From contig JBHGNT010000020.1 in assembly GCA_043228905.1 (NCBI GenBank), forward strand, positions 7,316,001-7,380,000: a stretch of 64,000 bases of DNA, written 5' to 3'. Both the position numbers and the translations under genes were made by a program. Origin of the DNA: Azolla caroliniana (Eukaryota > Plantae > Polypodiophyta). Below are positions 1 through 46,043 of the stretch, piece by piece. The notes beneath the pieces were generated by a model. The model searched no databases, was not told the origin of the DNA, and worked only from the letters and a program-made list of their open reading frames with translations. Within the stretch, counting starts at the first letter, position 1. Each line of letters opens with the position of its first letter.

Positions 1-2290
1 GACGGAGCTTTGGGAAGCTTCCAAAGCAAAATTTGACAGGAACTACACACTCCTTGCGTAATGCTCAGCCTCAACCGAGCTTAGAATCAAACATAGAAAA
101 CGGGGAATGAACACACGACACAAAGGAGAGAAGAATACACAGGATGTTTAACGTGGAAAACCCTGAGAGGGAAAAACCACGGGAGTCCACAGACTCCAAA
201 CTATCACTATATCACAATGATTACAACAGTGACCTCTCAAAGGCAATGACCTCGTGCTCACGATCTTCGCCACAGGCGGCGGTTACAACAGAGGCAACGA
301 CCTCTTCCTCTCTCTCTCTCTCTCTGTATTACGCGCTCTCTAGTCTTGCACCAACAAGAATGACAACAACTCTATTCTCTGTTTGCCCTAAGTCATATTT
401 ATACTAATATGACTTTTCGACTATTTACAAATATAGCCCCGATGGACTCTCAGAAACATATTTACAAATATGTCCCTTCATCCGGTGAGCACTTCTCACC
501 GGGCCTTCACCTTCTGACTCTTGCCGGGTACTCCTCATCCGGTTCACACCGGGTCTTCCGTAGCCGTGTACTCCTCATCCGGTTCACACCAGGTCTTCCG
601 TAGCCGGGTACTCGTCATCCGGTTCTCACCAGGTCTTCCGTAGCTGGGTACTCGTCATCCGGTTCTCACCAGGTCTTCTGTTGCCGGGTACTCCACATCC
701 GGTTTCGGCCTCGGCGGAGTTTTCTCATCAGTACTGTTCTTCTCACTTCCCATCCGGAGGGACCTGTTTCCTAACAAAATTATCGAGCTCAAGTGTCAGC
801 TCCGAGCAAGAAAAGAGAAGGGTCGGGCCGAACAACCCGCGCTCCCCACTTTCGGCCACATTATGCCTCTGCTCCTCCCAGAATCAGCCATCCCTGAACC
901 CACCTCAGCTATCCTCCATGAATTAGTTGAAACTCTGTTATCGAAGGCACCCACTCTACTCCCCATAATTGCCGACATGACTGTTGTAACCCATACATTG
1001 CTGCGACAGATTGAGAACATTGCTGCGACAGATTTGGCCATGCTAACAAAGGTGGCCGAAAAGGCCAAAGAACATTATCGTGAGGCCCTCGCTGAACTAG
1101 AGCAACTGCATGCAACCCTCCAAATGGCCCAACATAGAGAGGTCGAATTACAAGCACAATTGGACACAACATTGCAAACAAAGAAGGAGGAGTTCAACAG
1201 AGCCATGGAAGCATAGAAGGCGCAAGCTGCCGAACGCTTGAATAAGCACCAGCAAAATGCGGACCAGACCCTGAGCGTAAAGAAGAAGAGCATGCCACAA
1301 CCTTGCGTGTGCACGCCAACCGAATGGCAGGTGCCATAGAAACGATCGAAGCCGACTTTCAACAATCACTGCAGGATACAATCACCAACTATAAGGAGGC
1401 CCTAAAGGAATCTCAAGAGCGCTACGAGCAACTGGAAAAAGAGAACGACATATCGGTGGTAGAATTCATCAGATTTCACAAACAGTTGCTCGATCTTCGA
1501 ATCCGTGATCGATTGCAACGCGATGAAATTGCAATGTATTGTCAGGAACTCCACGACACCCTACACGCTATCGAATGGGCAAAGCACGAGCTAGCACACC
1601 AACTCGAAGTGGAATGTGATTACTACGACGCTCCAATCACTACTATCTAGGCTCAAATGGAGGAGATGTATAACTCAACACACACACAATTTGAAAGCAT
1701 CCTGAAAGAATGCCAGGTGAATAGTGAAATGGAAAAAACGCAGATTAAAATTTTGCTCCTCAAACACCGGCAACGATTGTACTCCCAGATCATTGACGCC
1801 CTATCTAATAGCTGGAAATCAGGGTTGGCACAGGCGGCCGAATTGCAGATTTTTCGGGCCAACCACGAGAATCGAAAAAAAAGAAGGTTGGGGATTTTTT
1901 AAGATGGACGAAAGTAGCGTCCAAATGCTCTGAGAAGACCTGACAAAGGAATTCTCCTCTCTCGCCCAGGCACATAGTGAGGCAATCGAACAATTACTAT
2001 AGGAATTCAAAGACGAGCAGCTATAGGTTGTCCTAGATCTTGAGCAGTACGAATGGGAGCGGCTCCAAAAAGAAATGGCATTCGAAGCCTCAGTAGAGGT
2101 CAACAATGAAGTCTTCCAAGAAAGCCACCCCGAGTTTGGGGACACACAAGCCAACGAGGAGCTAATAACCGATGAAGGGAGAGACATAGATAAGTAGCTA
2201 GAGTAGGCGACAAAGCAAGAGAAAGAGCCAGAGTAGGAGACATGGCCGAAACAAGAAAATGAATCTACGGAGGAGATTATTCGGCAAAAT
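1..2290 (+). pseudogene. Degenerate coiled-coil ORF, probably a retroelement accessory ORF, split by the solo LTR
   Basis: Removing the solo LTR gives DGALGSFQSKI|IELKCQLRARKEK in frame; E/L/Q/K-rich heptad fragments 863-1216, 1303-1650, 1657-1902 with stops and frameshifts; no recognisable domain. Confidence 0.5.
34..776 (-). mobile_element. Solo LTR, Copia family A
   Basis: TGACAGG..CTAACA ends; perfect 5-bp TSD AAATT (29-33 / 777-781); homologous to the LTR at 50325-50922, which is next to a Met PBS; CCGG-rich ~39-bp tandem units. Confidence 0.92.
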
Positions 2291-2291
2291 G

Positions 2292-3979
2292 AGATCACCC
2301 CTTAAAGAAACGTGTTCTTGACGTCCATCTGATGGAGACGCCCTCCCCTTACAACTATTATCACTAGCGCCACACAAATTGTTGTCATCTTCACCACTGG
2401 TGCGAAGGTCTTGTCGTAATCGATGTTGTGGGTCTGTGTTTATCCCTTGGCCACCAATCGGGCCTTATATCAGTTGACCAAGCCATCGACATTGTACTTT
2501 ACTTTGTACACCCATTTGCACTCGATCAGCTTGTAGTGTCGGGGAGGGTCAACCAATTCCCATGTCTTGTTGGCAGCTAGTGCCGGCATTTCTTCCTCCA
2601 TGGTTGAGTGCCATTTGGCATCCTGTGATGCCTCTGCGTAGCTCTTTGGCTCATGGACTCTACCACTTTTGACATGTACACATAATGATGCACCATGTAT
2701 TCGTTGTATCCGTATCAGATCACTAGATTCTTGTGGCGAGTCGATTGACGTAACTTCTCATTAACCGATTTTAGGGCCCTCTTGGCCACATCTGACCTCA
2801 ACTCCTAAGGCTCCTTATCGCTCTGGTTCGTGTTAGATTCTCCCTGATCCGATGCACCTTTATCTGTGTCGTACTCCGGCATCTTCATCTTCCCCTTCCC
2901 CTTCTCATTGTGCCTAAACTGTCTTCTGAATTTCTAGCACGGGGACTGCACTACTGCATCTTCACTACTCGTCGGCTCTTCATCTAACTGGTCATTCTAA
3001 CTCAGCTCTTCATTCGACCCACTTAGCCTAAATGAAACCCTGATTCTCTTCCGAAGGGTCAAATTCTTCTTCATTAACCACCATCTCAGCCTCACTGGCC
3101 TCATTCTCAACAATCAGCACAGAGTCCTTGGGGGTCAGAAGAGAATATCAGGATGCCAATTCGTCAAAGGCAATGTTGCGGCTCACTCGTACTTGCTTCG
3201 TCCGAGGGTTATAGCATTTGTACCCCTTTTGTCATTGCGAGTAGCTGACCAGGATGCATTTCTCTGACTTGGCATCCAGCTTCTTCCATTTCACATCCGG
3301 CACATGCAAATACACAATGTTGTCGAATACCCTCAGGTGCTTCAAATTCGGCTTGTGCCCGAAATACAACTCATGTGTTGACACCTTTCCTCCATGTGTA
3401 GAAATCTGATCCTAGATGTGCACAGGCGTTCGAACATGCTCTTCTCTTCCAGCATTGCCCGAGTCACTTCCATTGTCAGCTGGTTCTTCCTTTTGGCTAC
3501 GTCATTCTGCTCTGTATATATCTACATCTGAATTCACGACAAATTCCAATCTACTACAAATAACTGTTGAATTGGCCGAAAAAGTATTTTCTTCCCACCA
3601 TCCTACCACAAGCACTTGATTTTACTCTTTGTTTCCCATTCTACAAGATTCTCTAAGTTTCGGAAACAAGAGAAGACATCACTCTCCTTCTCTATGAGGT
3701 AAACCCATGTGTGTTGGTCGTAGTCATCGATAAAGGAGACGAAGTATTGACTCCCGCCTATATTCACATTTTGTGTCACTTGTTTGGGAAAAGAAGCTGG
3801 TATTTCTTCCTTAATTGGTAGGCTTCACAACTTGGGCCTCAGGCCACTGAATTTCCACATTCCGAAAACAATTTGTTTTGCTTGCAACTCTTGAAGCCTT
3901 TCAAAATTCACGTGGTCAATCCACTTATGCCACAAGTCAATATCCGATTCAACTTTTTGTCCTTTGCCGAACATAGAAG
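2292..3979 (-). mobile_element. Old Copia family-B-like pol remnant (GAG-pre-integrase/INT/RT); outermost host of the left nest
   Basis: Minus strand encodes KVESDIDLWHK, KLDAKSEKCILV and HQMDVKNTFL; continues at 21778-21995 (GRMFILDMNDVGTS|MFGKGQK across the A1 insertion). Confidence 0.85.
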
Positions 3980-4485: not shown

Positions 4486-5222
4486 GAAGGTTCTAAAACT
4501 TGAAGAAAATGGAAGAGTCATTCGGAAGCATATTCAAGCTCACCGGCTCCAACTACCCAATGTCGAAATCGAAGATGACAGACATGCTCGTTGTCGTGAA
4601 GATTTTCGGCAATGGTGTGAAAATCGTGTGGAACAAACAAAATCTAGAAAGTGTAATGAGCACTCAATCATTTGTAAATAAAATAAGACTAAAGCCTAGT
4701 AACCTTTGAGTCCATACAAAGGGGTGTAAGCAAGGCTTGAACCTTGCACCTCCATGATAAAAGACGAATTAACTTACCACTAAAGCCACTACTAAGAGCT
4801 TTAGATTTTGTATATTTTCTTTTCATATTCAATATTTCGTAGGAAGAAAACATATAAAAACCGTGGGCACAAAACCATGGTTTTAACCCATGGTTTTAGC
4901 CTGTGGTTTTAGCCCATGGTTTCTGCATGGAGAGACCTATAAAAGCCTATAGTGGGGCTTGTGTAAGGGGGCAAGTGATGTAAGTAAAAAATAAAACTGG
5001 TAATCAAAGATCTGAGTTATTCTAATGGTGATGTATCTTGTCTCATAAAACTAAAGTCAAGGGTTCAATCTCTATCTCAATTTCTCTCTATCTCTTCATC
5101 CATCTATCTATCTTCAATACTTTCTCGCTTACACTGTTAAAAACATCGAATCCTTCCGGTTCAAGACCCCAGTGGTCCTGCTTCATTTCACGAACACGCG
5201 AGGATTTCCTCAACATCTTACT

Positions 5223-5240
5223 TGGTGAACCCGACGTGAA
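5223..5240 (+). promoter_or_regulatory. tRNA-Trp primer binding site of G1
   Basis: TGGTGAACCCGACGTGAA is complementary to the plant cytosolic tRNA-Trp 3' end TTCACGTCGGGTTCACCA (recalled sequence). Confidence 0.85.
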
Positions 5241-8470: not shown

Positions 8471-9225
8471 TGATCATCATCATCATTATGCTCATCGCCT
8501 CTTGTTGATTCTCCATCTCCTTGCTACCCGCTTTCACGTCGGGTTCACCACTTGTGTCGTGCCTTTCGGCTTCGGATCGTTACGTGAGTCGGGTGGGAAC
8601 CGCTGGGGTTTTGGACTAGGAGGTGGAAGAATTTGAGAAGAGTCTAGTTATGTATAGATTATTAGAAGTTTGTGAATCCCACAAGTAGAGTTGTTTTAGT
8701 TTATCTTAATCATAGTAATAAATTGAAATAGTTTAGAATAGTTTAGAGTAGAAATAGAAAAGAGATCAAACCTTGTGAATCCCACAAGTATTATATTATT
8801 TCGTGAATCCCCACAAATATATTTTATTGATTGTTGGTGTTTTAGGAAATATATCCAATTTCCCAAATATTTTTCACACCCTATTACATTGTGCTCCTCA
8901 TCCTTATATAGTGATGAGAGAGTCTTCACAATCCATGCTTTTTCTCTAACTATAGACTATATGCTTTATCTAACTTTAGTTTTCATGCAGATTGCATGTG
9001 CATGATTAGCTTTCTATCCATCTTTTCTTTTAACTCGAGTGTGTATGCATGAGTAACTTTTTGTACCATGCATATCTAGAATATTTACATGGGATAAAGT
9101 TTAGTATAACTTTAAAGTTCGTAATATGCTAGTATAGTGGTAAGGCTTAACATTATTAACATGGAGGTACAAGGTTCGAATCTTGCCCTATGCATGTAAT
9201 ATTTATTTATTTTTATATTTTTTTA
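8471..9225 (-). mobile_element. Inverted LTR + Trp-PBS + gag start of a second Gypsy family (G2), replacing the G1 RT core
   Basis: Same 18-nt PBS on minus at 8533-8550; LTR end at ~8555; AT-rich LTR body; tRNA-like module at 9124-9196. Confidence 0.7.
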
Positions 9226-9585
9226 TATTTACAAATATGTCTCTTCATCCGGTGAGAGACTCTCACCGGCCTTCTTCATCCGGGTCTCCTTACCGGTTCC
9301 TCCTTCCGGTTCTCACCGGGTCTTCCTTGTTGATTCCTCCTTCATCCAGTTCTCACTGTGTCTCCTTACCGGTTCCTCCTTCCGGTTCTCACCGGGTCTC
9401 TTTACCGGGTCTTCCTTGCCGATTCCTCCTTCATCCGGTTCTCACCGGCTCTCCTTACCGTTTCTCACCGACTCTCATCGGCCTTCTTCATCCGACCCTT
9501 GTTGGGTCTGCTTCGTCCGGTTCTCACCAGGTACTCTTCATCCGGTTCTTGCCGGCTCTCCATGTCCCATCCAAAGGGACCAAAA
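9226..9585 (-). repeat. Fragment of a family-A-type Copia LTR (U3, CCGG repeats)
   Basis: TTTACAAATATGTC..CATCCGG units..CCCATCCAAAGGGACC matches family A LTRs; both ends truncated. Confidence 0.7.
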
Positions 9586-9619
9586 ATGTAATTTTCACGT
9601 AGTGTGCAAATTACACTAC

Positions 9620-11374
9620 GACAACGGTATGCCATCCGGTTCAGAGCAAAGGTTCTCAGCGAACGACAACAAAGATACGCCCAAGTCAAGCGGGAACTTT
9701 GGGGTATTGTGTCGACAATGAAGACGGACAAAGACTACCTGATCGGGTCTGAAGTAATAATTGAGACAGATTGTCTCCCAATCCTCGGGATGATCTCAAG
9801 ATGTGCGACACCAGATCTAGCTATGCTAAGGTGGATCTCCTATATCAAGTCTTTAAACCCAGAGATCCACCATATTGCAGGGAAGAAGAACGTCATGGCT
9901 GACATGTTGTCGAGGGCAAGATTTGAGAATGAAGGTGACATGGTTTTGGGAGATGAAGACGTCACCCTCAACTTCTTCAAGATGGCTCGACTATCGGCGG
10001 AAGACAAGGGCACGCTAACCCTCCACGCCTTCAACGAGGACGAGTACGAAGGAGAGTGGTTACTAATCAGTAGATTCCTAAGAACAATGACGACGGATGC
10101 TTCGTTGACGAAGGAGGAGGCCCTACAAATCCGGAAGAAAGCTTACCAATACTTCTTGAAGGGAGGATTCCTTTGGCGACACCCAAAAAGAAGGACAGGA
10201 ATACCATGTCGAGTGGTGGTGAAGAAAGAAGAGCAAGTGACGCTAATGACCGAATTCCACGAGAGTGCCTGGGCAAGTCATAGAGGAACATGGGCGACGT
10301 TCAAGAAGTTGAAGGAGAAGTACCGGTGGCCAAGCATGTACAAAGATGTACTCCATTTTGTGCCCACATGCGAAACATGCCAAGTACATTCGAATATACA
10401 TCATCGTGATGAGCTACGACCGACATACCCGCTCACCATACACTTCAAATGGATGGTAGATCTGGTCTCAATGCCAATGGGAGTGGGACAAATGAAGTAC
10501 TTAGCTCTGGCAAGAGAAGACTTGACAAATCAAGTAGAAGGACGAGCCTTGACAAATAAGATGACGTCGGCTATTTGGAAATTTCTACTCGAAGAGGTTG
10601 TCTGCCGATACGGATGTGTGGGAAAGATAGTCACCGACCGAGGGGAGTTGGATGCACACGAAGCAACAAAGCTTTTCGAGCGACTAGGCGTGAAGCTCTC
10701 CCTCACGACTGCCTACAATCCAGAAGTGAATGGGAAGATCGAGCGAGGGCATGGACCTATCGTCAAAGCCATCGTACGAGCATGCAACGGTCGAGTCGGG
10801 AATTGGCCACGAATATTGCCCTGTGCCTTGTGGGCGGACAAAACGACACACAGCTCAGTGACAGGGTATATGCCAACGGAGCTTATGTATGGACAAAAAC
10901 CAATAATGTCCATCGAAAGGACGATCGCCTCATGGGTAGCGATACCATGGGAGAACGAGATGAGCTGAGAAGAGTTATTAGCAGCACGGATAAGGAAACT
11001 TGAAAGAAGACCTGAAGATGATGGAGGTAGCCCAAGTGAAGAACAAAATTCGGTTCAACAAGACGCATCGACTACGTCCCAAGAAGATCGAAGAAGGAGA
11101 TTGTGTATTGTTCTATGACAACAGCCTTGACAATCAACACAATACAACAAGAAAGTTCGCAAGAAGATAGTTCGGACCATATGTGGTGACAAGTGCCAAC
11201 AATAATGCCACATACCACCTTGCGGAGCTAGACGGATCAAGGTTGGTTGTACCCATTGCAGGGAAAAGAGTAAAGAATTTCAAGAAAAGACAAGACGCGT
11301 ATCCTGACCTCGATCACCTCAACGATGAAGATAATAGGATGGATGTGAATGAGGACATGGAAGAATCTGATTGA
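9620..11374 (+). pseudogene. pol: G1 RNase H + integrase
   Basis: RYAQVKRELWG, IETDCLP, NVMADMLSR, HHCC zinc finger (H..H..CETC), WMVDL, VTDRGE, NGKIERGH. Confidence 0.88.
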
Positions 11375-12121
11375 TCACCATAGCCGAAATCTCGCACTCT
11401 CTCTTCTTGGCACGTACCAGACGACGTGCGGTTTGGTGGGGGTAGATGTCGTGAAGATTTTCGGCAACAGTGTGAAAATTGTATGGAACAAACAAAATCT
11501 AGAAAGTGTAATGAGCACTCAATCATTTGTAAATAAAATAAGACTAAAGCCTAGTAACCTTTGAGTCCATACAAAGGGGTGCAAGCAAGGCTTGAACCTT
11601 GCACCTCCATGATAAGAGATGAATTAACTTACCACTAAAGCCACTACAAAGTGCTTTAGATTTTGTATATTTTCTTTTCATATTCAATATTTCATAGGAA
11701 GCAAACATATAAAAATCGTGGGCACAAAACCATGGTTTTAACCCATGGTTTTAGCCCGTGGTTTTAGCCCATGGTTTTAGCCCCTGGCTTTAGCCCCTGG
11801 CTTTAGCCCGTGGGTTTAGCCCATGGTTTTTGCATGGAGAGACCTATAAAAGCCTATAGTGGGGCTTGTGTAAGGGGGAAGGGATGTAAGTAAAAAAAAA
11901 AACTTGTAATCAAAGATCTGAGTTATCCTAATGATGATGTATCTTGTCTCATAAAACTAAAGTCAAGGGTTCAATCTCTATCTCAATCTCTCTCTATCTC
12001 TTCATCCATCTATCTATCTTTAATACTTTCTCGCTTACGTTGTTAAAAACATCGAATCCTTCCAGTCCAGGACCCCGGTGGTTCCGCTTCATTTCACGAA
12101 CACCCAAGGATTTCCTCGACA

Positions 12122-14604
12122 TCGTGGTCAAAGATCTCTAGCTGCATGTACAGTTCGGGGACAAGAAACCGGACAAGATTGATGCCACAATGTGGGAGTT
12201 GATGCATATGAAGACGACGGCATACATCCAGTGCTTCATCGACATGAGCATGTACAACAAGTTCAATGACGAAAGTAAGGCTCATGTGCTCTGGGAGAAA
12301 ATCGGCACCATGTTGGAGAGTAAGAAAGTCGTAAATCGGGTTTCAGTATTCCGGAAGTTAGTGAGACTCCAGTACCATGACAGATCCAGCATGGCAAAGC
12401 ACATGAATGCATTCGAGGGGCTCATAAATCAAACAACCTCGCTAGAAGTACCTCAAGTTGACGAGGTACTTGCGTTGATCCTGCTCGGTTCCCTCCAGGA
12501 TAGTTGGGAGACGCTAGTTGTCACTTTGGGCAACACCAAGCCAGAAGGAAAGCAGTTGTCCCTAGCAAGGTGTCCCTAGCAAGGGTAAAATCAAGCTTGC
12601 TGGATGAAGAAGCTCGCCGGAAGGACTGGGAGTTTAGAACCGATCCGAATGTCTTGGTCACTGAAGATGACCATAATCGAGGAAGAGGCTGAATTCGGAG
12701 TCCCCAAAACCAGGACAAATCAGGGACGAGGTCGAAGTCAAGGGGGAGGCCCACTTGTTTTTATTGCAGAAAGCTAGGGCACTTCCAAAAGAACTACCAA
12801 CACTTCCGGAAAGCCAAAGGGGGAGCCAACATTCCAGAACCGAAGAAGATTTCGGAAAGGCGAGGAACGTCGGTGATCGTGACAAGTGAAGAGGAACTAT
12901 TCCTAATCACCGAGGAGAGTGTGTTGCATCTTTTTAGCAACGAGATGACATGGTTGGTCGACTCCGGAGCGTCGTTCCATCTAACCCCCGACCGGAAATG
13001 CTTCTCATCATACAGAACCGAAGATCATGGTTCTATCCGGATGGGAAATGAAGGTGCATGCCGAATTGTTGGCATAGGAGATGTGTGGTTGATGACATCA
13101 ACCGGGTGCAAGTTGTTGTTGAAGGATGTCTGACACGTTTCGGAGGTTCGGTTGAACCTTATATCAGCCGATCAGCTAGATGATGAAGGCTTACACGGGT
13201 AGCATCCCGAACAGAGTCATGAAGTTTTGCAAATGGAAGCCTGATCATGGCCCGAGCCCAGAAGATCAACACATTGTACCTAATGCATGTCCGGATATGC
13301 CGAGAGGAAGTGAACATGGCATCCGAAAATGCCAGTGAGTTGTTGCACAAGAGGTTGTGCCACATGAGCCAAAAAGGGATGAGAAGACTGGCCGAAGATA
13401 ACCTCATTCTGGAGGTGAAAGACGTGCATCTTGAGAAGTGCACAGACTGCTTGACCGGCAAGCAGAACCGAACCTCCTTCCGAACCCGACCACCGTCGAG
13501 ACGGAATGCACCGCTGGAACTTGTGCATACCGATGTATGCCAAGTGGACAAGAAGTCACATGCCGGATCGCAGTACTTCGTGACGTTCATAAACTTCCAC
13601 AACCAGAAGTTGTGGGTCTCACCGTTGAAGACGAAGGATCAGGTGTTATCTATCTTCAAGGAATTCCATGCGAGGGTGGAAAGGGAAACCGGCCAGAAGA
13701 TAAAGGTGGTTCGCAGACAACGGAGGAGAATATCGGGGATAGTTCGAGGAGTACTGTGGGCCAAAGGGAATCGAGCTTGAATTTACCGTGCCAAAGATGC
13801 CGGAACTAAACAGATTGGCCAATGATGGACCAGACCATGATGGAGAGAGTCTGGAGCATGTTAGCACATGCTAAGCTGCCCAAGACGTTTGGGGCTGAGG
13901 CACTAATGACAGTGACGTACATGATAAACAAATCACCCTCAATGCCTTTGGAAGGAGACTCACTACAGAAAGTATGGACCGATAAAGACATGTCTTACCG
14001 TCATCTAAAGGTGCTCGGATGTCTCGCTTACGTGCATGTTGCAAAGGACAAGAGAGCAAAGTTGGATCCCAAGTCCCAGCCATGCATATTCCTTGGATAC
14101 AACGATGATGATTTCGGCTACCAAGTGTGGGACTTGGTCGACAAGGTCTTCTGGAGTAGAGACATAGTCTTCATGGAAGACAAGAACATTGCCGACTGGG
14201 AGTCGAAGAAGAAAAGAATGCACTCTAGATTGACCGATAGAGATCGGTTGGAAGATGTTAGGACACATCCGGTCAGAAGCCGGATGTCAAACGAGGACCA
14301 TGATGAATCGGCCGGATTCAGACAAGAAACCAAATTGATCGAAGAAGAAGAATCGATCACCGAAACCGGACAAGACCCCGAATCGGATTCAGATGAAGAA
14401 CCAACGGAGGAACTAGTGGCCGAAGACCAAGGAAGAAGATATCCTCTCAGGGAGAGAAGAGCCCCCCAGAGATTTCCGGATGCAGAGCATGTGTTGCTGA
14501 CTGATGAGGGGGAGCAGGAAAGCTTTGAAGGAGCCAAGAGAGACACCCACAACTTCAAGTGGTTAAGTGCCATGCAGGATGAGATGGATTCCTTGTGTGA
14601 GAAC
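12122..14604 (+). pseudogene. A1 gag-PR-INT (disrupted)
   Basis: ILLGSLQDSW, WLVDSGASFH, HKRLCH..CTDC, VHTDVC, KLDPKSQPCIFLGY. Confidence 0.88.
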
Positions 14605-17600
14605 TGTTGAGCGGCAAGCTCAACCGGAGCCGGATCGGCTGAATAAGCCGGAGCCGGTAAGCGAGACGGATCGGGCGAAACGGATCGGTATGACGGTGAG
14701 CAACCGAACCGGCAAGCATCCCCGGACAGCCGAATGCTGTACACGGGAACGGATCGGCTCCGTGGGCATGGTGGAAGAGGTGGGTCGGCACGCAATGGAG
14801 GCGGACGGCAAGAGCAGGAACGGAGGCACTATGAGCGTGCCGACAGCAGTTCCGGGACTTCCACAAGCAGGGGGAGTCAAGGTGGTGCCGGAGGCCGACA
14901 AGACAAATCCCCTACGGAATGCTGGTACTATGGCAAAAAAGACCACAGGGAAAGCGAGTGCTGGAGAAAGCATGCCGATTCGGACAAATCCGGATCCGGC
15001 AAGACCGGTAAGGATGGCCGGCAAAACTCGCACTACGCAAACGGATCAGGGGGATCCGGAACCGGAAAGGCCGGTAAGAGACCAGCCTTGGTGATGAATC
15101 ACAAGGCAAACTCAATGAAGAAGACCACTTCCAAAACGGAGGAAGTGTGGTATGTTGATTCCGACGCGTCGAACCACATGACGAGCCACAAAGAGTGGTT
15201 CTCCTTTCTGGAGAAACCGGATCAACCAAGAGTAGTCGAAACCGGAGACGACACTCCTCACCCAATCGTGCACGTCGGAGAAGTCCCTCTAAGCCACGTC
15301 GGACAGAAAGGGAAGCTGATGAACGTATTACACGTTCCGACAATCACGAAGAACCTGGTGTCCGTCGGTCAGATTGTCGACCAAGGGATGCAGGTGCAGT
15401 TTACGCACCTCGGGTGCTTCATTGAGGATGAGGGCGAAGTCATTGCGCAAGGGCGCAGAGACGGGAGGATGTTGATCCTCAACACCAATGACCTTGGCAC
15501 CACTCTGTTCGCGAATCGATAGAAGGTCGAGTCGGACATCGACCTGTGGCACAAGCGGATAGGCCACGTCAACTACCGGAGGCTTCAAGACCTGCAAACG
15601 AAACAAGTCATTTTCGGTTTGCCGAAGTTCAGCGGCCGGAGAGCCGAAATTTGTGAAGCTTGCCAACTTGGGAAGCAACACCGGCTTCCATTCCCCACCG
15701 AACGGAACCGGAGCCGTAACAAGCTCGATCTCATCCATTCGGATGTGTGGGGACCAGCACAAAGTGTAAGCCTTGGCGGGAGCCGATACTTCGTCTCCTT
15801 CATCGACGACTATACTCGACATACTTGGATCTACCTCATTGAGCGGAAGAGCGAAGTCTTCGACTGTTTCCGGAGCCTCCAGAAGATGGTGGAACGGGAA
15901 TCGGAGAGGAAGATCAAATGCCTTCGGTCGGATGGTGGAAAGGAATATTTTTCCGGCCAATTCACTAGTTATCCGCAGCAGAAGGGAATTCGGCGAGAGT
16001 TCAGCTGCAGATACACACCGGAGCAAAACGGTGTGGCCGAAAGGAAGAACCGGACACTCGTCGAAGCGGCAAGGGCAATGCTGGAGGAGAAGAGCATGCC
16101 CCGGTTCTACTGGGCGGAGGCGGTCCAGACGGCCGTCTACATACAAAACCGCATTGGTGACAAGGTGTCAGCTCATGAGCTGTATTTCGGGCGCAAGCCG
16201 AACTTAAGACACCTTCGGATATTCGGCAGCATAGCGTATGTGCATGTACCGGATCAGAAGCGAAGAAAGTTGGATGCAAAATCGGAAAAATGCATCCTAG
16301 TGGGCTATGCTCAAGAGCAAAAGGGGTATAAGTGTTATAACCCTCGGACGAAGGAAGTCCGAGTTATCCGGGATGTCGAGTTCGACGAATCAGCATCCTA
16401 GTACTCCGTACCGACTCCGACTTCCGATCCCAACCCAATGTCGGAAGATCAGGCCAGTGAGCCTGAATCAGCCCTGGCAGAGGATGATGAAGCCGGGACT
16501 CAAGATGAGAGTCTGGAATCGTTTCAGTTGAGTGGACCGAACGAGCGACTGAGTCGGTTGGACCAGTTGGATGAAGAGACGGCAAGTGGTGGAGACTCTG
16601 TCGTGCTCTCCCCGCGCAAGGAACCGAGGAAACGGTACACACGCAAAGAGAAGGGGAAGAGGAAGATGCCGGAATTGCGTTGCGCCGATCAACCCGCTAG
16701 AAGGATCCCGTCATACGGTATGGGTACAATGAATACATGGCGCATCATTATGCGTACATGACTAAGGTGACAGAAGTGTGTGAGCCGGAAGGCTACGCAG
16801 AAGCGGCAAAGGACGCAAATTGGCGTGCCGCTATGGACGAAGAAATGCGGGCGCTCGATGCCAACGAAACTTGGGACCTAGTTGATCCTCCCCGTCACTG
16901 TAAACCGATCAGATGCAAGTGGGTGTACAAGGTCAAGTACAACGTCGACGGTTCTGTTAACCGGTACAAAGCCCGGTTAGTGGCGAAGGGATACGCGTAG
17001 ACCCACGGAATCGACTATGACGAGACCTTCGCTCCTGTGGCGAAGATGACGACGGTTCGTGTGGTACTGGCGGTTGCTGCGGCAAGGGGGTGGCATCTTC
17101 ACCAGATGGATGTGAAGAACGCCTTCCTTCAAGGAGAGCTTGAAGAAGAAGTCTTTATGACTCAGCCCCCCGGATTTCAATCGGAGATGAACAAGTCGGC
17201 GGTATGCCAACTGAAGAAGTCGCTTTACGGCTTGAAGCAAGCCCCCCGAGCTTGGAACGCGAAGATCACGCACCGGTTGCGTAAGCTGGGGTTTGTTGTC
17301 TCAAAGTTTGCCCTAAGTCATATTTATACTAATATGACTTTTCGGCTATTTACAAATATAGCCTCGATGGGCTCTCAGAAACATATTTACGAATATGTCT
17401 CTTCCTCCGGTTCTGCACCATCCGGCTCTCCGTAGCCAGGTACTCCTCATCCGGTTCACACCGGGCCTGCACCATCCGGCTCTCCGTAGCCGGGTACTAC
17501 TCATCCGGTTCATACTGGGTCTGTATCATCCGGCTCTCCGTAGCCGGGTACTACTCATCCGGTTCATACCGGGTCTGTATCATCCGGCTCTCCGTAGCCG

Positions 17601-19816
17601 GGTACTCCTCTGTTCTTCTCCCTTCCCATCTGGAGGGACTTGTCTCCCAACATCTTGTATGTGGATGATTTAGTCATCACTGGACCGGGTCTTCCCGAAA
17701 TCAACTGCGTCAAGTCCCAGTTGTCGGACGCATTCGAAATGAAGGACCTGGGGGACCTTCATTATTTTCTTGGGCTCGAAGTGATCCGGACTCACGACGG
17801 CATATTGCTCTCACAACGACATTACGTGTTGAATATGCTGTATAAGTTCGGCATGACGGATTGTCGACCTGTCTCCACACCCCTGGACCGGAACCAGAAG
17901 CTCCGTCCCAACTCCGGACCGGCCTGCAATGAGAAACGGTTCCGACAGGTTGTCGGAAGCCTGATCTACTTAACCATCACCCGACCCGACATCAGCTATC
18001 CGGTCGGCATGGTAAGCCAGTTCATGCAGAAGCCGACCATGGAGCACCTTCAGTGCGCGCAACGAATATTACGGTATGTCAGCGGCACTAAGGACCGGGG
18101 ACTGTTATACCGGCGAGGTATACCCGAAGAGCTCGTCGGTTACACAGATGCTGACTGGGCCGACGATGCATCTGATCGCCGCTCCACTTCCGAATACATG
18201 TTCTCCATAGGTAGCGCGGCCGTTGCGTGGAGCAGCAAGAAGCAGCCCACAGTGGCTTTGTCAAGCACTAAGGCTGAGTACCGGGCCGCTACCGTTGCCA
18301 CTTGTGAAGCCATCTAGCTTCGGCGACTGCTGTGAGACTTGCGGATCAAGGTACCGACCCCGATCCCAATTTACTGCGATAACATGAGCAGCCTGCAGCT
18401 CGCCAGGAACCCTATGTTCCATGCTCACACAAAGCACATCGAGGTGCACTACCACTTCGTGCGTGAGCGGGTCCTGAGCGGTGAAGTTGACCTACGGTAT
18501 GTTCATACGGATCGGCAAGTTGCCGACATCTTCACCAAGCCGCTCGGATCGGACAAGTTGCAGCACTTTACCGACATGCTTGGTATTCAGCATCTCGATG
18601 TGCCGCACTTGAGGGGGAGAAGCAAGGGCAAAGTCTCTACCGAAACGGGCAAAGGCCAGCATCTCGATGTGCCGCACTTGAGGGGGAGAAGCAAGGGCAA
18701 AGTCTCTACCGAAACGGGCAAAGGCCAAAAACCTATTGAACCCGTCGGTAAGAGGAGAGCTGGAAGAAGAGGAGACAAGAAGCTGAAGGAAGCCGAGTCG
18801 ACGAAGGAAGTCGACACATCCGAACAGGTTGGAGCAAGCGGCTGTGAAGAAGAGTTGTGCACTCAGGAAGAGAAGCGCATGCTGTGCGGAGGTCATCACG
18901 ACGGTACTGACCATGATACAGAGTCGAATGAAGAATTCGATTTCGGTTCACTGACTGAAGAAGCCGAGGGAAGCATGGAGAAGGCCAAGACTCGAAAGTG
19001 GTCCGATGTGGTGAGAGGCCTAACGCCGGAAGTCGAATCGGAGTGTACCGATTCGGACAAGAGCTGGAACGAGTCGGAGACAGCTGACTCGGATCAACAG
19101 ATGGATCCGGATGAGACGGATCGACTGAAGGCCAAGGGGACACGGACACAGCGGAAGTCGATGCCATCGTGGGAGAACCGACAGATCGGCAAGCGCCGGA
19201 GTCACAACAACGTGACTGCTGAGATGGGCCGATTGAGCAGACATACCGACCGAGAGGGTCGAGGCGCGCAGAACCAAAGGGGTCGCGGCAAATGGGACCG
19301 GACCGGACGAGGAGCGCGAGCAAGGCGGAGTGACGCCAGGAGAAGTCGGTTGGAAGAACCGACTGCCACAGAGGTCGACACTACGACCCCACCTCAGGTT
19401 GAGCTTGAGGGGGAGTGTTGAGCGGCAAGCTCAACCAGAGCCGGATCGGCTGAATAAGCCGGAGCCAGTAAGCGAGACGGATCGGGCGAAACGGATCGGT
19501 ATGACGGTGAGCAACCGAACCGGCAAGCAGTGGAGGCCGGGTGCAATCCGTAACCAGCAGTCCAATAGGAAGCCTAGTATAGGATAGACTACTAGGTAGC
19601 TATAGTCTCGTAGTAAGTGTCAGATGCTCGTGTGAGCATTGAAGTACATGGTACTTATGTCAGTTCCAAGAGGACTTGTATAAATAGTGCTACTTAGTAT
19701 AGTGTGTATTGTCAGTGAGTCTTGATATAATTTTGAAATTGTGTTCTGCTCTCTCTGTCTCTCTCGCTCTCTCGGTTGTTCTCTGTTTTACGCTTCCGCA
19801 AACACTTACGTTTACA
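14605..19816 (+). mobile_element. Copia family B element B1 (Ale-like) with truncated 5' LTR
   Basis: TSD AGAAC both sides; removal restores A1 EN|HTYELTKL; 5' LTR only ~14605-14718; full 3' LTR 19416-19816; PPT TTGAGGGGGAG; [38 protein letters not shown], RNase H. Confidence 0.92.
17303..17652 (-). repeat. Partial family A LTR inside B1 RT
   Basis: Intact outer end (CTCCCAACA) plus TATA region; R/U5 and adjacent RT sequence deleted. Confidence 0.8.
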
Positions 19817-26162: not shown

Positions 26163-29100
26163 ATGGCAGCTCCGGGAGATCGAAGGTAATCAATCACCTT
26201 ACAGCATCCAGATCAAATCCAGTTTGCAATTTTAGTTTTTATATTTTGTTCTATTTCCTTCTCTTGATGTTTAGTTGGAACGGGCTCTGATTTGTCTATA
26301 TCTTCTAATTTGAGTATTTATATATTTTTCTTTATATGCTTCTTTTTATGTTTGTGCAGAATTGGTGCAGGTCGAAGAGGCATGACGGTGTTAGGGAAGA
26401 TCCCTTCCCCAGCTGTTCCAAAACCAATAAATTTACCAAGTCAAAAGTAAGACCTACATTCTTTGTCTGTGTTGGTGATGACTTTTTCCAGAAATCAAGG
26501 ATAACTAAATGGTGAAACTGATTCTTCGATTTGACAGGTTGGAGAATAAAGGGTTGGAGACAAATGTTGAAATAGTGCCACGGTATGTCTTGGTGTCATT
26601 GAAAGATCATTTGGAATGCATTACAGATATTAATTGTCCGTGACTTTTGCAAAAGTGTATGTGGAGGTTCAAGGGGGAGAGGAGCAGCAGTGTAAAGTAT
26701 AAGAATCACAATCATTATATAGTCAAGATCACTCACATTGTTTCTGTCTCGTGTTAAGTGTTTGTTGCATCTAAGAGATCCATATTGTAGTTCAGTTTGG
26801 AGTAGAAACATAGCTAGGACAGGCCTTTGGGTTTATTAGGATATTTTTATGCAGTTTCGTATTGTTATTGCTCATATATTTTCTTCTATGCAACTCAAGC
26901 TGACTTGAAAATTAGGGTATTTTTATGTAGTTTTGAGTTATTATTGCCCGTATACATTCACCTGTGCAACTCATTGTGGCTCAAAAAAGATTGCTGTGGT
27001 ATGACCATGAAGTCATATTGGAATCACTTCCTTTAATTGTTTTTGCTTGCTATTTACTAATTTCGTGACTCCAGAAGTTTAACGAGACCAAGTGCACTAG
27101 ACCCTTCACTCCTTCCCCATCGAAGAATACCCCTGCATATTTGTATGTACGGAGATTGCAGAGACCTCTCCTGCTTTGTGGGTGATCTTTCTGTCCATTA
27201 TTAAACTAATCCGAAGATCTCCTTCACCTCCTGGCACTTGAATCGAAAGAGACCAAGTGCACTAGACCATTCACTCCTTCCCCTTCGAAGAATACCCCTG
27301 CATATTTGTATGTATGGAGATTGCAGAGACCAAACTAAACACTCGCGAAGACCCCTCCTGCTTTGTGGGTGATTTCTCCTTCTTTCTTGAATCGAAACTA
27401 ATTTCGTGCTTGAATCGAAAGAGACCAAATGCACTAGACCCTTCACTCCTTCCCCTTCGAAGAATACCCCTGTATATTTGTATGTACGGAGATTGCAGAG
27501 TCCTAACTAAACACATGTGAAGACCCCTCCTGCTTGCTATTTACTAATTTCGTGACTCAAGAAGTTTAATATTACCTGTATTTTATCTTTAGCGTTTGTT
27601 CTTGAGCTTGATAGGGTTATTATTTTCATCTGTCATATTCTGAAGCTATGAAATCTTACTGCTGATATTATCTCATGCTAGCATACTATATAAAGAAACC
27701 ATATTCGTATGTGTATTTGTATCTCTATCAATATTACTGTGAACAACCTAGAGAGAAGTTATGAAAACAAAGATGTATATTTAACTTTGTTGATGGGGGA
27801 ATTGTATTAACCTTAAAGTCATTGAATTTTGTGTACAGAAGCATTTCATCCACATTAACTATGGTGCTAAAATGGTTTCCAAGCATAGAAGCAACCTATT
27901 TTAATTATCCCTTCATTTATGGAGATAGAATTAAATATTACCCTCCCCTGACTTAAATTCTTATTTTGAGTGCATAGCCTTGAGATTTAGACATTCTTTG
28001 CTCCAACGAAGTTCCTCATTTCTGTCCAATTTTGTCTGATGCTTAGCTACTCTTTTAAGAAATCCATCCAATTTTGTCTGACGTGTATAATTCGCAGTGA
28101 GAATGAAAGACAGAAAATGAAAAGACATTCTTTTTGATGGATCCTTAATTTATGCATGTCAGCATTCTTTGTGAAGTTAAATTATTGATGGTACTTCGAA
28201 TTAACTTTTGCATCCTGTTGATAGAGGAACATTTAGCTGGGGGAGTACAAGCCGCAATGCATCAAGTACCAATAAATCAGGACCTCCTAATGTCACGCCT
28301 TCACCTCCTCTGGGTACTGGGGCATGGGGTGGTGCTGCAAAGATACAACCTATATCTGTTTCTGTTAATGAATCAGGAAACTTGGTTGAAAATACTCAAC
28401 CATCATCTCCCAGTAGTGCCGCACGGCCTTCTTCTGCTCCAACTTCAACCAGAGCTTGGGGTATGGGAGCGAAGGTAAATTATTCATGTGTGGTGTTTAA
28501 AATACCATTAAGTTATCTTTTATTGGTGTATTTATTATAGGCTAATGATTCTTATGTGTCACATTTTGTAGTCACAATCACATGGAGAATCCAGTGGCTC
28601 CAGCATAAATCCTGTGGAGTCTTGCCCACAAGAACCTCAAAGAACTAGAGATGCACTACCACAGAAAAGTGATTACTATATTTACTTGCTTTATCTAGTA
28701 TTTGCAAGTTTCAATTCCCATTTGGCAATGGTTTTCATGATTTTGATTAGCTTTATACATGCATTGAACTTATGTGGTGATTGGAGATAGAAGTTCCTAC
28801 TATTTAACGACAAGATTGTTCTTATGAAAGGGGTTTTGGTCCTTATCCATGGGTATAGTCTTGTAGGATTCTCAAGTTTCAATACCCTTTTGTCATGGGG
28901 TTTCATGATTTTGATTAGCTTTCTATGTATATTATATGTATTGTACTTATTGGTGATTAGGGATAGAATTTATTCCTACTATTTAACTAAAAGCTTGCTC
29001 CTTATGAAAGGGATTCTGGTTCATGTGTATGGTATTTAAATTCTGTAGAGCTAAATTCTGTGTTCTGTGTTGTACGTGAGTGAAGAAAAAATCATATTCT

Positions 29101-32100
29101 TTTGTGCAGACATTGCAGAACACTCAAATCGACCAATGTCTGCAGATGGCACACTTGTGGACAAAGATAGGCATCTCCTGCTTCATCCAGGTTTATCTTT
29201 TTCTAGCACAATATTTTCATTTTGAGTGTATCTATGAATGGTTAAAAATTTTCTTGAGATATCTTGAAGTTTCTCATACAGGTGCTAGTGGCTATGGCAG
29301 AGCTGGTCCTGGTCCTGGTCCTGGTCCTGGTCCTGTACCTGGAGGCTTTCCTCTTCCAGGAGGTGGCTACAATGACCATGTTATTAGGCAGGGAATGCAT
29401 TCACCAATTAGCCACGACGTACCTGCTGGTTTAGGAATTTATCCACGCCCTCCCCATCATGATGTATACTATCAATTTGGAGTTCCTCATTATAACAATA
29501 TGAAGGACAGGGATATAGCTGTAGTAGCCATGGTTAATAATGCTGGATACTATGGAAGCTATCCACCACAGGTTGCACACCCAGAGTATATAGGACAGCG
29601 TCCAATCTATGCAAATTATGGTCTCCGTGCTCCTCATCCGGAACAGTTTATTAGACCTGTCCATGGAAATATGGGCCCTCGGCCACATGATTTGAATATG
29701 AATATGGGCTATGTTCGCGAGGGTGAATTTTTATCTCATGAAGGAGAAGGCTTTTATGATCCAAGGAAAGATGCTAGAAAACATGGAGATGGGTATCATG
29801 GCTCAAAACCTATATATGGACTTGAGCAGAGCCACAGGACACTGAGTATCCCTGGTAGGCATATGTCTGGCAACAGAGAGGGGAGAGACTCTGGAAATGA
29901 TTTCAGGGATCATAAAAATCCCGTGTCTGAAAGGGCCTTTCCTGCACTGCTGCCTCCAGAAGGAAAATTCACATTGCTTACAAAGACTCCTCGACTTGAG
30001 GAGCAAAGTGATGGAGATATGGATCACAACATGGAAAAGAAAAGCAGTGAAGGTACTCAAAATGTAGAGAAGCCTAAAAGTAAGGCTGCCAAAAATTATG
30101 ATGAGACTACAGACGGTAAGGGTGAGGCTAAGGATACGATAAAGACCGATGAGCGAGTTGAAATTCAAAGAAAAGATGGTTTTCTGATAAACAAAGAAAC
30201 CAAGGAGAATAGCCTTCCTAAAAAGAATGAGCTTATTGCTCATATGAAGGATGGCCATATTGTTCCTAAAAAGGTTGGTCATATTGTTCCGAAAAAAGAT
30301 GAGCATATTGTTTTGGAAAAGGATGAGCATATCATTCCTAAAATGATCAAACAGATTACCTTATCCTCAGTGTCTGTAGGTTGCAAGAAAGATGAGCTGC
30401 AAATTGGTTCTATTGTGACTCCAGTTGCATCATTGTCATCCAAGAAAGCAGATTCTAAAAACAATATTGAATTTGTGTCATCAACTCAGGAGCTTCATCT
30501 CTCTGTGACAGAAGAAACCAAGAGTGATACGGAGCCGAAGACACTCATGAATAACAATACATTGTCTGAATCTAGCATTAATGGGCTAAAAACTAACAAG
30601 AAATCTGACAAAATTTCTATTCCCAACAGTAGTACTATTTCTGCTGGAGAACACCATCCAACTGTTAGCAAAGAGAGTTCCAAAAATACAGCAACAACAG
30701 AAACTTCTTTGAAAGATGAACATAAAGGTAAAGGCAGAACTTATAATCAGAAAGCTGGCAAGGGTTGGAGACCAAAATCACCTGTTAAAGATGTGAACCC
30801 ATCTTATAGTTCACACAGTTTGAAAGCAACTGACCAGGCCTCTAATACAAGTGGTTTCCCAGAATTACATCATGCTCAGTCATCTGAGAGAAATGATGGG
30901 AGTTTGAATGTCCGAGCTGATAAACTAGCACCTCTCTCTCTTGACGAGAGGTGTAATGGTGCAGCAACTGCAGAGTCTGGACGCCATAGTGGGAAAAAGC
31001 ATCATAAAGACTACTCAGCAATTTCCATTGGTGGACCTTTACTTAAAGATAACCATGAAGAAAAAAACAAACTTATTTCAACTGATAATTTGCCATTAAA
31101 AGAGGACCCAAAGGCGAAGTCAAGGCAAGTGAATCAGAAAGTGGATAAAGAGTGGAGGGCCAAATCCCCAGCTGTTGAGGCGCATGTTTCTGTCAAAGTT
31201 TCTGGTATTCAGTCTGGCAAGCAAGACATGGTCGACATTGAATCCACAGATATTCTGACCAAAAAAACTGCAGAACAAGAGGCTTCTGATGCATATGACT
31301 ATGAGAAACAGGTAACAACCATGATTTTTGTACAATTTTTAGACAATTGTTTTCCCATTATTGTTGTAAATTTGAGACATTAAGGTGTTTAGAGCTTGCG
31401 TTCTTATTGATCAATTTTTCGAAAGATAGGTCAGGAATATAGTTTCATAGTGGCAGGTGTAACTATTTAGTTATTTGCCCAAGCATCCATTAGATGCATC
31501 ACTGGTATGTAGTCTATGTTAAAAGCCGTGTATGTAGTGGGAACCTCCATGTGTGTCATCTATAGGGGAAACAGGAACTAAAATTGTAATATCTGAATCC
31601 ATTTCTTTAAGACATGAAGAAAGTCCTATTTCATTCTCTGAAATTCCTTTAAGGTATATGAGCCAATACAATCCGTCTGAGTGGGGTGCACATATTCTCA
31701 TGCAAAACTCGGATTTAATTAGTAGTTCTGAGTTTTATAACATTGTATGCTGTCATATTGTTCTGGATTCAAGCATCCCTGGGATGCAATATAGATAGCA
31801 TTGTAATATATGTTCAAGTCTTGTGTTCTTGTGGGCTATCAACAACTTTTCTACTATTTGTATGAATTATCTTGTGTTAATATAAAACTTCAAGTCACGT
31901 TCATTTGGCTCTTGGAGAGACAATTCCCCTTGTACTATTCTAATTTCTGAAGGTTTGGTTGCAACTTTTGAAACCCATATTTCACACAAAAACTGTCCAT
32001 CTGTGTCCCTGCCTACCAAATATGTTAGCGAACATGAAATTGTGCTTTGGCGCAAGTCTGGTTATATCTCAACTATGGTTCTATGAACTATAACTATGCA

Positions 32101-45900: not shown

Positions 45901-46043
45901 ACCCATAACCTTTATGAGAGGAATCTAGGGCTTTATATATAATCTGCTCACGGAGCATGGTTGTAAGTGTTGACTGTTTTGTTAATGAAGGCGTGGTCTT
46001 CTATTTTGGGCACATATTGTCTCTCTGTGTTATTGTCTTGATC

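What the first reader, a model, noticed from the sequence alone, without database searches (positions are those of the whole stretch)
4724..4793. tRNA-like Pol III A/B-box module embedded antisense in Gypsy LTRs of two different families
Seen: the minus strand of both G1 LTRs (4724-4793, 11580-11648) reads GTGGCTTTAGTGGTAAG..CATGGAGGTGCAAGGTTCAAGCCTTGC, i.e. an A box, a B box and a T-arm-like GCAAGG/CCTTGC stem. The otherwise dissimilar G2 LTR carries TAGTATAGTGGTAAG..CATGGAGGTACAAGGTTCGAATCTTGC (9124-9196), again antisense to its element and upstream in U3. Known analogy: Cassandra TRIMs carry 5S-derived Pol III promoters in their LTRs. Inference: a conserved tRNA-derived promoter or TFIIIC-binding insulator in this Trp-primed lineage.
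Basis: partly seen in the sequence, partly recalled or inferred. Interest (0 to 1): 0.72.

Follow-up and report, generated by a model that had tools for sequence, protein, structure and literature searches.

The report
tRNA-type promoters inside moss retrotransposon LTRs
The end repeats of a protein-coding jumping-gene lineage, likely from a moss, carry tRNA-like pieces that have lost the tRNA fold but kept both promoter boxes at tRNA spacing, in either direction around the element's own TATA-like promoter, and they likely dock the tRNA-gene transcription machinery to keep that promoter open.

Summary
Observation confirmed: three A-box/B-box modules at the stated places (3 matches, 0.04 expected). 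G1 fits the Phygy Gypsy lineage (4-bp NCGN target duplication, Trp primer site). The module is the best-conserved block between G1 and G2 LTRs (z 9.5). In 80 loci fetched by integrase alone, 11 of 40 usable LTRs hold a full module. Strong box pairs at tRNA spacing: 13 in 55 kb of LTR, 0 in 220 kb of internal DNA. Boxes and spacing persist while the cloverleaf is gone, so it is not a tRNA gene.

The module is not always antisense, LTRs can hold 3-4 copies, G1 has a second, weaker sense copy after its TATA box, 27 of 40 LTRs lack it, and a Copia-like LTR has one.

Best reading: a tRNA-derived TFIIIC/Pol III docking site acting on DNA; function untested. Closest known: Helenus TRIMs, which are non-autonomous. 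The scan's index held no matching earlier finding, only a fungal Gypsy with an internal tRNA-like capture.

The parts
4588..4591 (+). G1 target-site duplication TCGT, left copy (NCGN type); G1 sits in a Copia gag gene
   Evidence: the Copia element resumes at 12122
4592..5215 (+). G1 5' LTR (624 nt)
   Evidence: 32 mismatches in 620 aligned columns against the 3' LTR
4734..4788 (-). tRNA-like A-box/B-box module, antisense, in U3; 148 nt from the TATA-like box; first T4 run 50 nt past the B box
   Evidence: (E 1e-12, training sequence)
4937..4945 (+). TATA-like box of the G1 LTR (Pol II promoter inferred)
   Evidence: aligned with the G2 and L059 TATA-like boxes
5018..5071 (+). second, degenerate tRNA-like module, sense, after the TATA-like box; no T4 run for 468 nt
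   Evidence: score 26/30, spacing 44; homologous copies in L059 and L033
5223..5240 (+). G1 primer-binding site, tRNA-Trp type (isotype label recalled; Trp is the dominant Phygy type in PMC6317226)
5241..8470 (+). G1 gag (DUF4100), protease-like stretch and start of RT, broken by stops; ends at the G2 fragment
   Evidence: protease and RT read by eye from the translation, no Pfam hit
8533..8550 (-). G2 primer-binding site, same type as G1
8555..9623 (-). G2 5' LTR (1069 nt), inserted antisense in G1 RNase H; flank CCGT (NCGN); most of G2 and the G1 RT-RNase H stretch since deleted (inferred)
   Evidence: (aligns end to end with the L036 LTR)
8903..8911 (-). TATA-like box of the G2 LTR
9130..9182 (+). 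tRNA-like module of G2, antisense to G2; score 30/30, spacing 43; T5 run 27 nt past the B box
9627..11375 (+). G1 RNase H and integrase, broken near the C-terminus; no chromodomain seen
11426..11446 (+). G1 polypurine tract
   Evidence: same tract before the LTR in relatives
11447..12121 (+). G1 3' LTR (675 nt)
11589..11643 (-). antisense module, 3' LTR copy; differs from the 5' copy at 2 spacer sites and no box site
11924..11977 (+). sense degenerate module, 3' LTR copy
   Evidence: 24/30; E 3e-6; not itself in training, but its 5' twin was
12122..12125 (+). G1 target-site duplication TCGT, right copy

Best explanation
These are likely tRNA-derived type-2 Pol III promoter modules (A box and B box 42-45 nt apart) kept in the LTRs of protein-coding Phygy-like Gypsy elements, where they are predicted to bind TFIIIC and recruit Pol III as a DNA element that likely shields the neighbouring TATA-type promoter from silencing. 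Shown: boxes, fixed spacing, LTR-restricted position, either orientation, one to four copies per LTR, lost cloverleaf, retention while flanks diverge. Inferred: a tRNA or SINE-head copy was captured into an LTR, copied to both ends by reverse transcription, then duplicated, inverted, lost or swapped between families by U3 recombination; selection acts on the protein-binding boxes and not on an RNA fold; an assembled complex 85-240 nt from the TATA box would hold chromatin open in nested-transposon heterochromatin, as fission-yeast tRNA genes do in either orientation. Any short Pol III RNA would be a by-product.
For: Position: score >=28 at spacing 42-45 gives 13 hits in 55,442 nt of LTR, 0 in 220,201 nt internal and 1 in 48,938 nt of other DNA. 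In the LTR set, eight other 4-nt spacing windows give 0-1 hits against 15. With spacing free over 38-61, 19 of 25 LTR hits fall at 42-45. Columns not in the search pattern are conserved at tRNA positions: 43-47 (18-20 of 20), U33 15 of 20, A38 15 of 20; 10 of 13 each with one module per group (nominal p 4e-3 and 2e-4, tree not corrected). Mean pairwise identity: boxes 0.72, spacer 0.33, flanks 0.34 and 0.31 (box value partly circular). Within the G1 group even the spacer stays 0.50-0.64 alike while flanks are 0.38-0.50. A profile of the 3 window modules alone finds L036, L038, L033 and L059 at E<=1e-5. The fold is gone: 47.9% of cells paired against 49.5% shuffled. Both orientations and both sides of the TATA box occur. 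Module edge to TATA is 84-241 nt, with 6 of 12 at 148-165. T4 lies within 45 nt downstream in 11 of 15 upstream modules, including 3 of 3 sense ones, against A4 in 1 of 15. Precedent: tDNA barrier activity in S. pombe needs TFIIIC and Pol III and is orientation-independent (PMC2040200, passages).
Against: No binding, chromatin or transcript data exist for these elements here. 27 of 40 LTRs lack the module, including one strongly supported 15-row clade, so it is dispensable. L004 lacks it although its integrase is nearly identical to that of L059 and L033. Spacers of different module groups are no more alike than chance, which fits several captures as well as one old capture. Copies occur in a Copia-like LTR (L080) and, with a weak A box, outside any recognised LTR (L010), so a mobile tRNA-like repeat may exist in these genomes. 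The G1 sense copy has imperfect boxes (26 and 24 of 30). The passages read of a plant barrier review cite TFIIIC barriers only for yeast and animals (PMC9540200). In yeast, tRNA genes can also repress nearby Pol II promoters (PMC2040200, passage). 77 of 80 loci come from 14 assemblies with near-consecutive accessions, probably one campaign, and repeat contigs can be chimeric.
Confidence: 0.5

Rival explanations
1. Passive relics: tRNA retrocopies or tRNA-derived SINE heads landed several times in AT-rich U3 regions and are spread by U3 shuffling; the boxes were polished during an earlier SINE life and do nothing for the LTR.
For: Patchy on the tree (6 changes, 4 forced). Both orientations; unrelated spacers between groups. 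All but one of the module-bearing LTRs are at least 57% AT in their first 400 nt. LTRs are mosaics. Copies in L080 and L010. A CCA-ended partial tRNA copy lies beside a Phygy integrase fragment in L035 (22.9 bits, E 0.011).
Against: The G1-group module stays alignable, spacer included, across integrase branches whose LTR flanks are near random. No consistent target-site duplication or shared 3' tail: longest flanking repeats were 4-8 nt in 18 of 20, and the 10- and 12-nt ones are low-complexity. Upstream copies sit in a narrow band before the TATA box. Tandem copies in L021 and L023 each keep their boxes.
Confidence: 0.25
2. The product matters: Pol III makes a short RNA. From antisense modules it would pair with U3 of the element's own RNA (self-limiting or siRNA-steering). 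From the sense copy after the TATA box, a roughly 500-nt R-U5-PBS RNA could template strong-stop DNA, as proposed for Helenus.
For: Nearby T4 terminators in 11 of 15 upstream modules and none within 45 nt in 4 of 4 downstream sense ones. The G1 sense copy would read through U5 and the PBS (first T4 468 nt on). U33 and A38 conservation could reflect an RNA-level constraint. Foamy viruses make Pol III RNAs from U3 (PMC3993851, passages).
Against: No conserved fold or covariation and no conserved spacer sequence. Orientation varies, so no single target. No pairing to the PBS or polypurine tract (longest 6 and 5 nt) or to the internal RNA (10 nt). T-richness after antisense modules is expected from A-rich U3.
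Confidence: 0.2
3. A pair of Pol II transcription-factor sites that only resembles A and B boxes.
For: U3 enhancers are modular; module-less LTRs carry other recurring motifs at a similar place (5 LTRs).
Against: Fixed 42-45 spacing and conserved columns 33, 38 and 43-47 match tRNA numbering (numbering recalled).
Confidence: 0.05

Closest known systems
Helenus TRIMs / TRIMp3 (Kojima 2024, PMC10886601; read parts 2-4 of 6 plus passages)
   Same: tRNA-like sequence in LTRs, conserved around boxes A and B, mostly non-functional as tRNA; one plant family (Selaginella); origin proposed by SINE insertion into an LTR. The paper also says that 'not a few LTRs' in Repbase hold tRNA-like parts, without describing the non-TRIM ones in the parts read.
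   Different: Helenus is non-coding, 311-1263 bp, and its Pol III promoter is proposed to make the template RNA. Here the carriers encode gag-pol, keep a TATA-like box, and hold 1-4 modules in either orientation. The paper argues that autonomous partners must use Pol II and are unlikely to share long LTR stretches with TRIMp3. Plant Helenus has 5-bp duplications; these have 4-bp NCGN.
Cassandra and Ajax TRIMs (as described in PMC10886601)
   Same: Pol III internal promoter carried in both LTRs.
   Different: 5S-derived (box A, IE, box C) and non-autonomous.
Foamy-virus U3 Pol III miRNA cassettes (PMC3993851, passages)
   Same: Autonomous LTR element with A/B-box Pol III units and T-run terminators in U3; dispensable in culture.
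   Different: Those make structured hairpin precursors with a shown product. Here there is no conserved fold, and the modules keep tRNA numbering.
tDNA/TFIIIC chromatin barriers (S. pombe cen1, PMC2040200, passages)
   Same: A and B boxes acting independent of orientation at a heterochromatin edge: the working model here.
   Different: Host tRNA genes at fixed loci, shown by experiment in yeast; here transposon-borne, fold-less and untested.
Phygy non-chromovirus Ty3/gypsy clade (Neumann 2019, PMC6317226; passages and one supplement row)
   Same: 4-bp NCGN duplication, tRNA-Trp primer site, compact coding region, no chromodomain.
   Different: No tRNA-like LTR module is mentioned in the passages or the table row seen.

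Membership tests
Phygy | 4-bp NCGN target-site duplication | tested here: met
   TCGT on both sides of G1; the one surviving G2 flank is CCGT; Phygy 100% NCGN
Phygy | tRNA-Trp primer-binding site | tested here: met
Phygy | no chromodomain, no extra ORFs | tested here: met
   Pfam finds RNase H and integrase only in the scanned ORF; 25 relatives end in a GPY-type motif and an acidic tail; the last G1 integrase piece was read by eye
Phygy | length 7.7-10 kb | tested here: inconclusive
   G1 spans 7530 nt but holds a G2 fragment and lacks part of pol
Phygy | groups with reference Phygy RT/RH/INT in a tree | not testable with these tools
   no REXdb references available; nearest named proteins are from Riccia, Ceratopteris and Adiantum at 42-64%
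Type-2 Pol III promoter | A box and B box | tested here: met
   28-30 of 30 on a recalled generic consensus for the three modules
Type-2 Pol III promoter | tRNA-like A-B spacing | tested here: met
   19 of 25 LTR hits at 42-45 nt
Type-2 Pol III promoter | T4 terminator downstream | tested here: inconclusive
   11 of 15 upstream modules within 45 nt, G1 at 50 nt, 0 of 4 downstream sense modules; AT-rich context
Type-2 Pol III promoter | TFIIIC/Pol III occupancy and a transcript | not testable with these tools
   no ChIP or stranded raw reads available
tRNA gene | cloverleaf with covarying stems | tested here: not met
   47.9% paired against 49.5% shuffled; acceptor stem 38.5%
tRNA gene | called by ARAGORN or Rfam RF00005 | tested here: not met
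   0 calls; at relaxed ARAGORN thresholds modules do no better than box-fixed shuffles
Helenus / TRIMp3 | tRNA-like A/B boxes in both LTRs | tested here: met
Helenus / TRIMp3 | short, non-coding element | tested here: not met
   G1 and relatives encode gag-pol; the coding state of G2 itself is unknown, its LTR relative L036 follows an integrase
Helenus / TRIMp3 | Pol III promoter placed to make the template RNA | tested here: not met
   12 of the 19 Phygy modules analysed are antisense and most upstream ones are followed by T runs
tRNA-derived SINE | own target-site duplication and shared 3' tail | tested here: not met
   identity 3' of the B box is at background; old insertions could have lost both
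tRNA-derived SINE | many free-standing copies outside LTRs | not testable with these tools
   no genome held; 1 weak-A copy in about 49 kb of non-LTR flank (L010) and 1 in a Copia-like LTR

The most novel reading that the evidence does not exclude
Autonomous moss Phygy retrotransposons bracket their Pol II promoter with back-to-back tRNA-derived Pol III promoters (antisense before, sense after the TATA box, as in G1, L059, L033, L021 and L023), a portable TFIIIC/Pol III chromatin barrier that lets them stay transcribed inside nested heterochromatin. The module is traded between Gypsy and Copia LTRs as an anti-silencing cassette and may be the raw material from which Helenus-type TRIMs arise.
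Probability: 0.3. Interest if true: 0.82.

Novelty: new variant of a known kind. Interest (0 to 1): 0.6.

Why it matters
Pol III promoters in LTRs are described for tiny non-autonomous TRIMs, where they are thought to make the genome RNA. Finding them selected in full-size coding elements, in either direction and in multiples around a TATA box, points to a different use: borrowing the host tRNA-gene machinery as a cis-acting shield. If true it would be a transposon anti-silencing strategy written in DNA, and a natural test of whether TFIIIC barriers work in plants. Mosses allow precise gene targeting, and sister families with and without the module give built-in controls. Such modules can also confuse tRNA and SINE annotation in bryophyte genomes.

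Tried and rejected
Functional tRNA: rejected.

Module RNA as primer for either strand: no complementarity to the PBS or polypurine tract.

Targeting of tRNA genes as in Ty3: no tRNA gene in the window; G1 lies in Copia gag and G2 in G1 RNase H.

The LTR TATA box serving the sense module: its distance to the A box varies from 73 to about 130 nt, so unlikely.

Expression: no RNA holder listed, which is no evidence either way. One 955-nt contig in a run only guessed to be RNA (X21) covers 4714-4762; contigs show neither strand nor transcription.

Laid contigs of DNA runs: summed depth peaks over the B-box half (X1 28,610 against 1,212-3,524 just upstream; X18 29,823 against 10-171), near the TATA-region value and below the LTR terminus in X1. 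The tool warns that such depth cannot rank parts of a stretch, so I do not count it.

Relatives: none in viral contigs; one in prokaryote genome bins (L081, probably plant contamination), with no module.

A search for a Trp tRNA to compare with returned 80 listed viral loci; 60 were scanned and held one unrelated tRNA-Met, so the parent isotype is undetermined.

No whole genome is held.

Literature: ten full-text searches turned up no description of A/B-box modules in autonomous moss LTRs. The library lacks most subscription papers and Repbase entries, and the Helenus supplements were not opened. The P. patens TE paper PMC7466625 (passages) has no mention of tRNA or Pol III. PMC13437025 (passages) reports no lineage-specific A/B-box differences and weaker flanking signals outside angiosperms.

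Full report
Setting. The window is a nest of plant LTR retrotransposons, mostly Copia. G1 is a Gypsy element with LTRs at 4592-5215 and 11447-12121, 5.2% apart (32 of 620 columns), a 4-bp TCGT duplication, a Trp-type primer site at 5223 and a polypurine tract at 11426-11446. It encodes gag with DUF4100, RNase H and integrase, with no chromodomain. The Phygy clade of Physcomitrella is defined with 100% NCGN 4-bp duplications and 81% Trp primer sites (PMC6317226), so G1 is Phygy-like. A tree with reference Phygy proteins could not be made. The nearest named proteins are from liverworts and ferns at 42-64%; a moss host is inferred. G2 is the 5' LTR (9623-8555), primer site and a short internal piece of a second family, inserted antisense into G1 at an NCGN site. 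It aligns end to end with the LTR of L036.

The observation. Sliding 40-nt windows of the G1 LTR against G2 peak on the module (z 9.5; next best 4.8 and 4.7 near R and the U5 end), and the shared blocks are colinear. The LTRs are therefore distant homologues whose best-kept part is the module. A generic box scan also found a weaker sense-oriented pair after the TATA-like box in both G1 LTRs.

Sample chosen without regard to the module. 77 of the 80 come from 14 assemblies with near-consecutive accessions. 40 loci had a recognisable 3' LTR with at least 400 nt; the other 40 were dropped as too short or lacking a recognised LTR start. LTRs without a following primer site were cut at 1500 nt, so that class holds some flank.

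Box pairs scoring at least 28 of 30 at spacing 42-45 number 13 in 55,442 nt of LTR, 0 in 220,201 nt internal and 1 in 48,938 nt of other DNA. The spacing window was chosen after seeing that 19 of 25 LTR hits fell there when 38-61 was allowed. Eight other windows of equal width gave 0-1 hits against 15. A sequence model from 23 modules gave 38 hits at E<=2 in 391,903 nt. Of the 15 hits not in training, 14 lie in Phygy-like LTRs by my reading, one lies at an uncertain LTR edge, and none lies in coding DNA; several are near-twins of training rows. By that model 11 of 40 LTRs have a full module, 2 a half module and 27 none.

Architecture varies. Antisense before the TATA box: G1, G2, L018 (no TATA box located), L021, L023, L025, L033, L036, L038, L059, and L024, L029, L063 outside the 40. 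Sense before the TATA box: L003, L006/L007, L039, and a second LTR in L075. Sense after the TATA box: G1, L059, L033, L021, L023, L026, and a half copy in L024/L025. L021 and L023 carry two or more antisense copies plus a sense one. The edge of the upstream module lies 84-241 nt from the TATA box, with 6 of 12 at 148-165.

On an integrase tree of 41 rows (3 short rows dropped), the label needs 6 changes, 4 forced by strong branches. One 15-row clade lacks it wholly, and half-modules survive in L028, L030 and L031. This fits ancestral presence with losses, or repeated gain. LTRs here are mosaics: L004 and L033 share their first 65 nt and then diverge, and the 5' part of G2 U3 matches Copia repeats in the window. 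A Copia-like LTR in L080 carries a 30/30 module. U3 exchange therefore likely moves the module; chimeric contigs cannot be excluded.

What is conserved. In 20 modules the conserved columns are the two boxes, positions 43-47, and also U33 and A38 (15 of 20 each; 10 of 13 with one per group), none of which besides the boxes was in the search pattern (tRNA numbering recalled, p values not tree-corrected). This argues for tRNA origin. The stems are not kept: 47.9% paired against 49.5% in shuffles, covariation 0.202 against 0.230. ARAGORN and Rfam call no tRNA, and relaxed ARAGORN does no better than box-fixed shuffles. Spacers of different groups are at background identity, while those of the G1 group remain 0.50-0.64 alike with flanks at 0.38-0.50. 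No consistent target-site duplication or tail flanks the modules.

Mechanism. Boxes and spacing kept, fold lost, orientation and number free, position near the Pol II promoter: this pattern is what a protein-docking DNA element would leave. A and B boxes recruit TFIIIC, which places TFIIIB and Pol III (PMC13437025). In fission yeast such a complex blocks heterochromatin in either orientation (PMC2040200). I put this reading at 0.5. Passive relics of repeated captures (0.25) explain the patchiness but less well the retention and position. A functional short RNA (0.2) is favoured by T runs after 11 of 15 upstream modules but not by the lack of fold, fixed sequence or complementarity. Nothing here shows binding or transcription.

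Known systems. Helenus TRIMs have tRNA-like LTR boxes but are short and non-coding, and their promoter is proposed to make the template. The paper notes other tRNA-like LTRs in Repbase in passing and argues that autonomous partners use Pol II (PMC10886601). Foamy viruses carry Pol III units in U3 that make miRNAs (PMC3993851). This finding fails membership in Helenus, tRNA genes and SINEs on tested features, and works most like a tDNA barrier. Ten searches found no prior description for moss elements, within a library that lacks subscription papers and Repbase. The scan's own index gave no look-alike by sequence and two loosely related notes by words.

Verdict. Real, selected-looking, and a new variant of Pol III promoter-bearing LTRs; function untested. 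Interest 0.6.

Noticed in passing
window 9225-9590 against 458-636, 17306-17610, 46043-46233, 50751-50919, 53488-53726: The 5' part of the G2 (Gypsy) LTR shares a CCGG-rich repeat block with Copia-associated repeats of the window, and L036 has it too: a likely Gypsy-Copia U3 exchange.
   Followed up: partly
L035 1148-1211: 5'-truncated tRNA copy (anticodon TCT by relaxed ARAGORN) ending in CCA, with intact T arm, next to a Phygy integrase fragment; Rfam tRNA 22.9 bits, E 0.011. It shares 16 letters around the B box with L021 modules.
   Followed up: partly
L080 1000-1053: A perfect-scoring sense module in an LTR that looks Copia-like (class judged by eye), so the module is not confined to Trp-primed Gypsy elements.
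   Followed up: no
L010 12017-12069: Module-like copy with a weak A box outside any recognised LTR, near Copia-like coding DNA.
   Followed up: no
L004, L014, L019, L020, L048 LTRs, offsets 111-217: Five module-less LTRs share a short CCCACAT-containing motif before the TATA box; L036 has both. Possibly an alternative U3 cassette.
   Followed up: partly
L004 5834-6550 and L033 LTR: Integrases nearly identical, LTRs share 65 nt, then L004 follows the L048 type and L033 the G1 type: recombinant LTR or chimeric contig.
   Followed up: partly
window 9598-9620 and 5216-5222: The G2 LTR starts with a hairpin-forming inverted repeat, and LTR end and primer site are separated by 3-7 nt in this lineage.
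   Followed up: no
window 29080-31383 and 32627-34672: Two long plus-strand open frames (767 and 681 codons) with no Pfam hit.
   Followed up: no
window 59831-61999: A 426-bp direct repeat pair at 99% identity enclosing 46/107-nt tandem arrays: a very young non-coding LTR-like element or a duplication.
   Followed up: no
L081: A Phygy-like integrase contig inside a cyanobacterial genome bin, probably plant contamination.
   Followed up: partly
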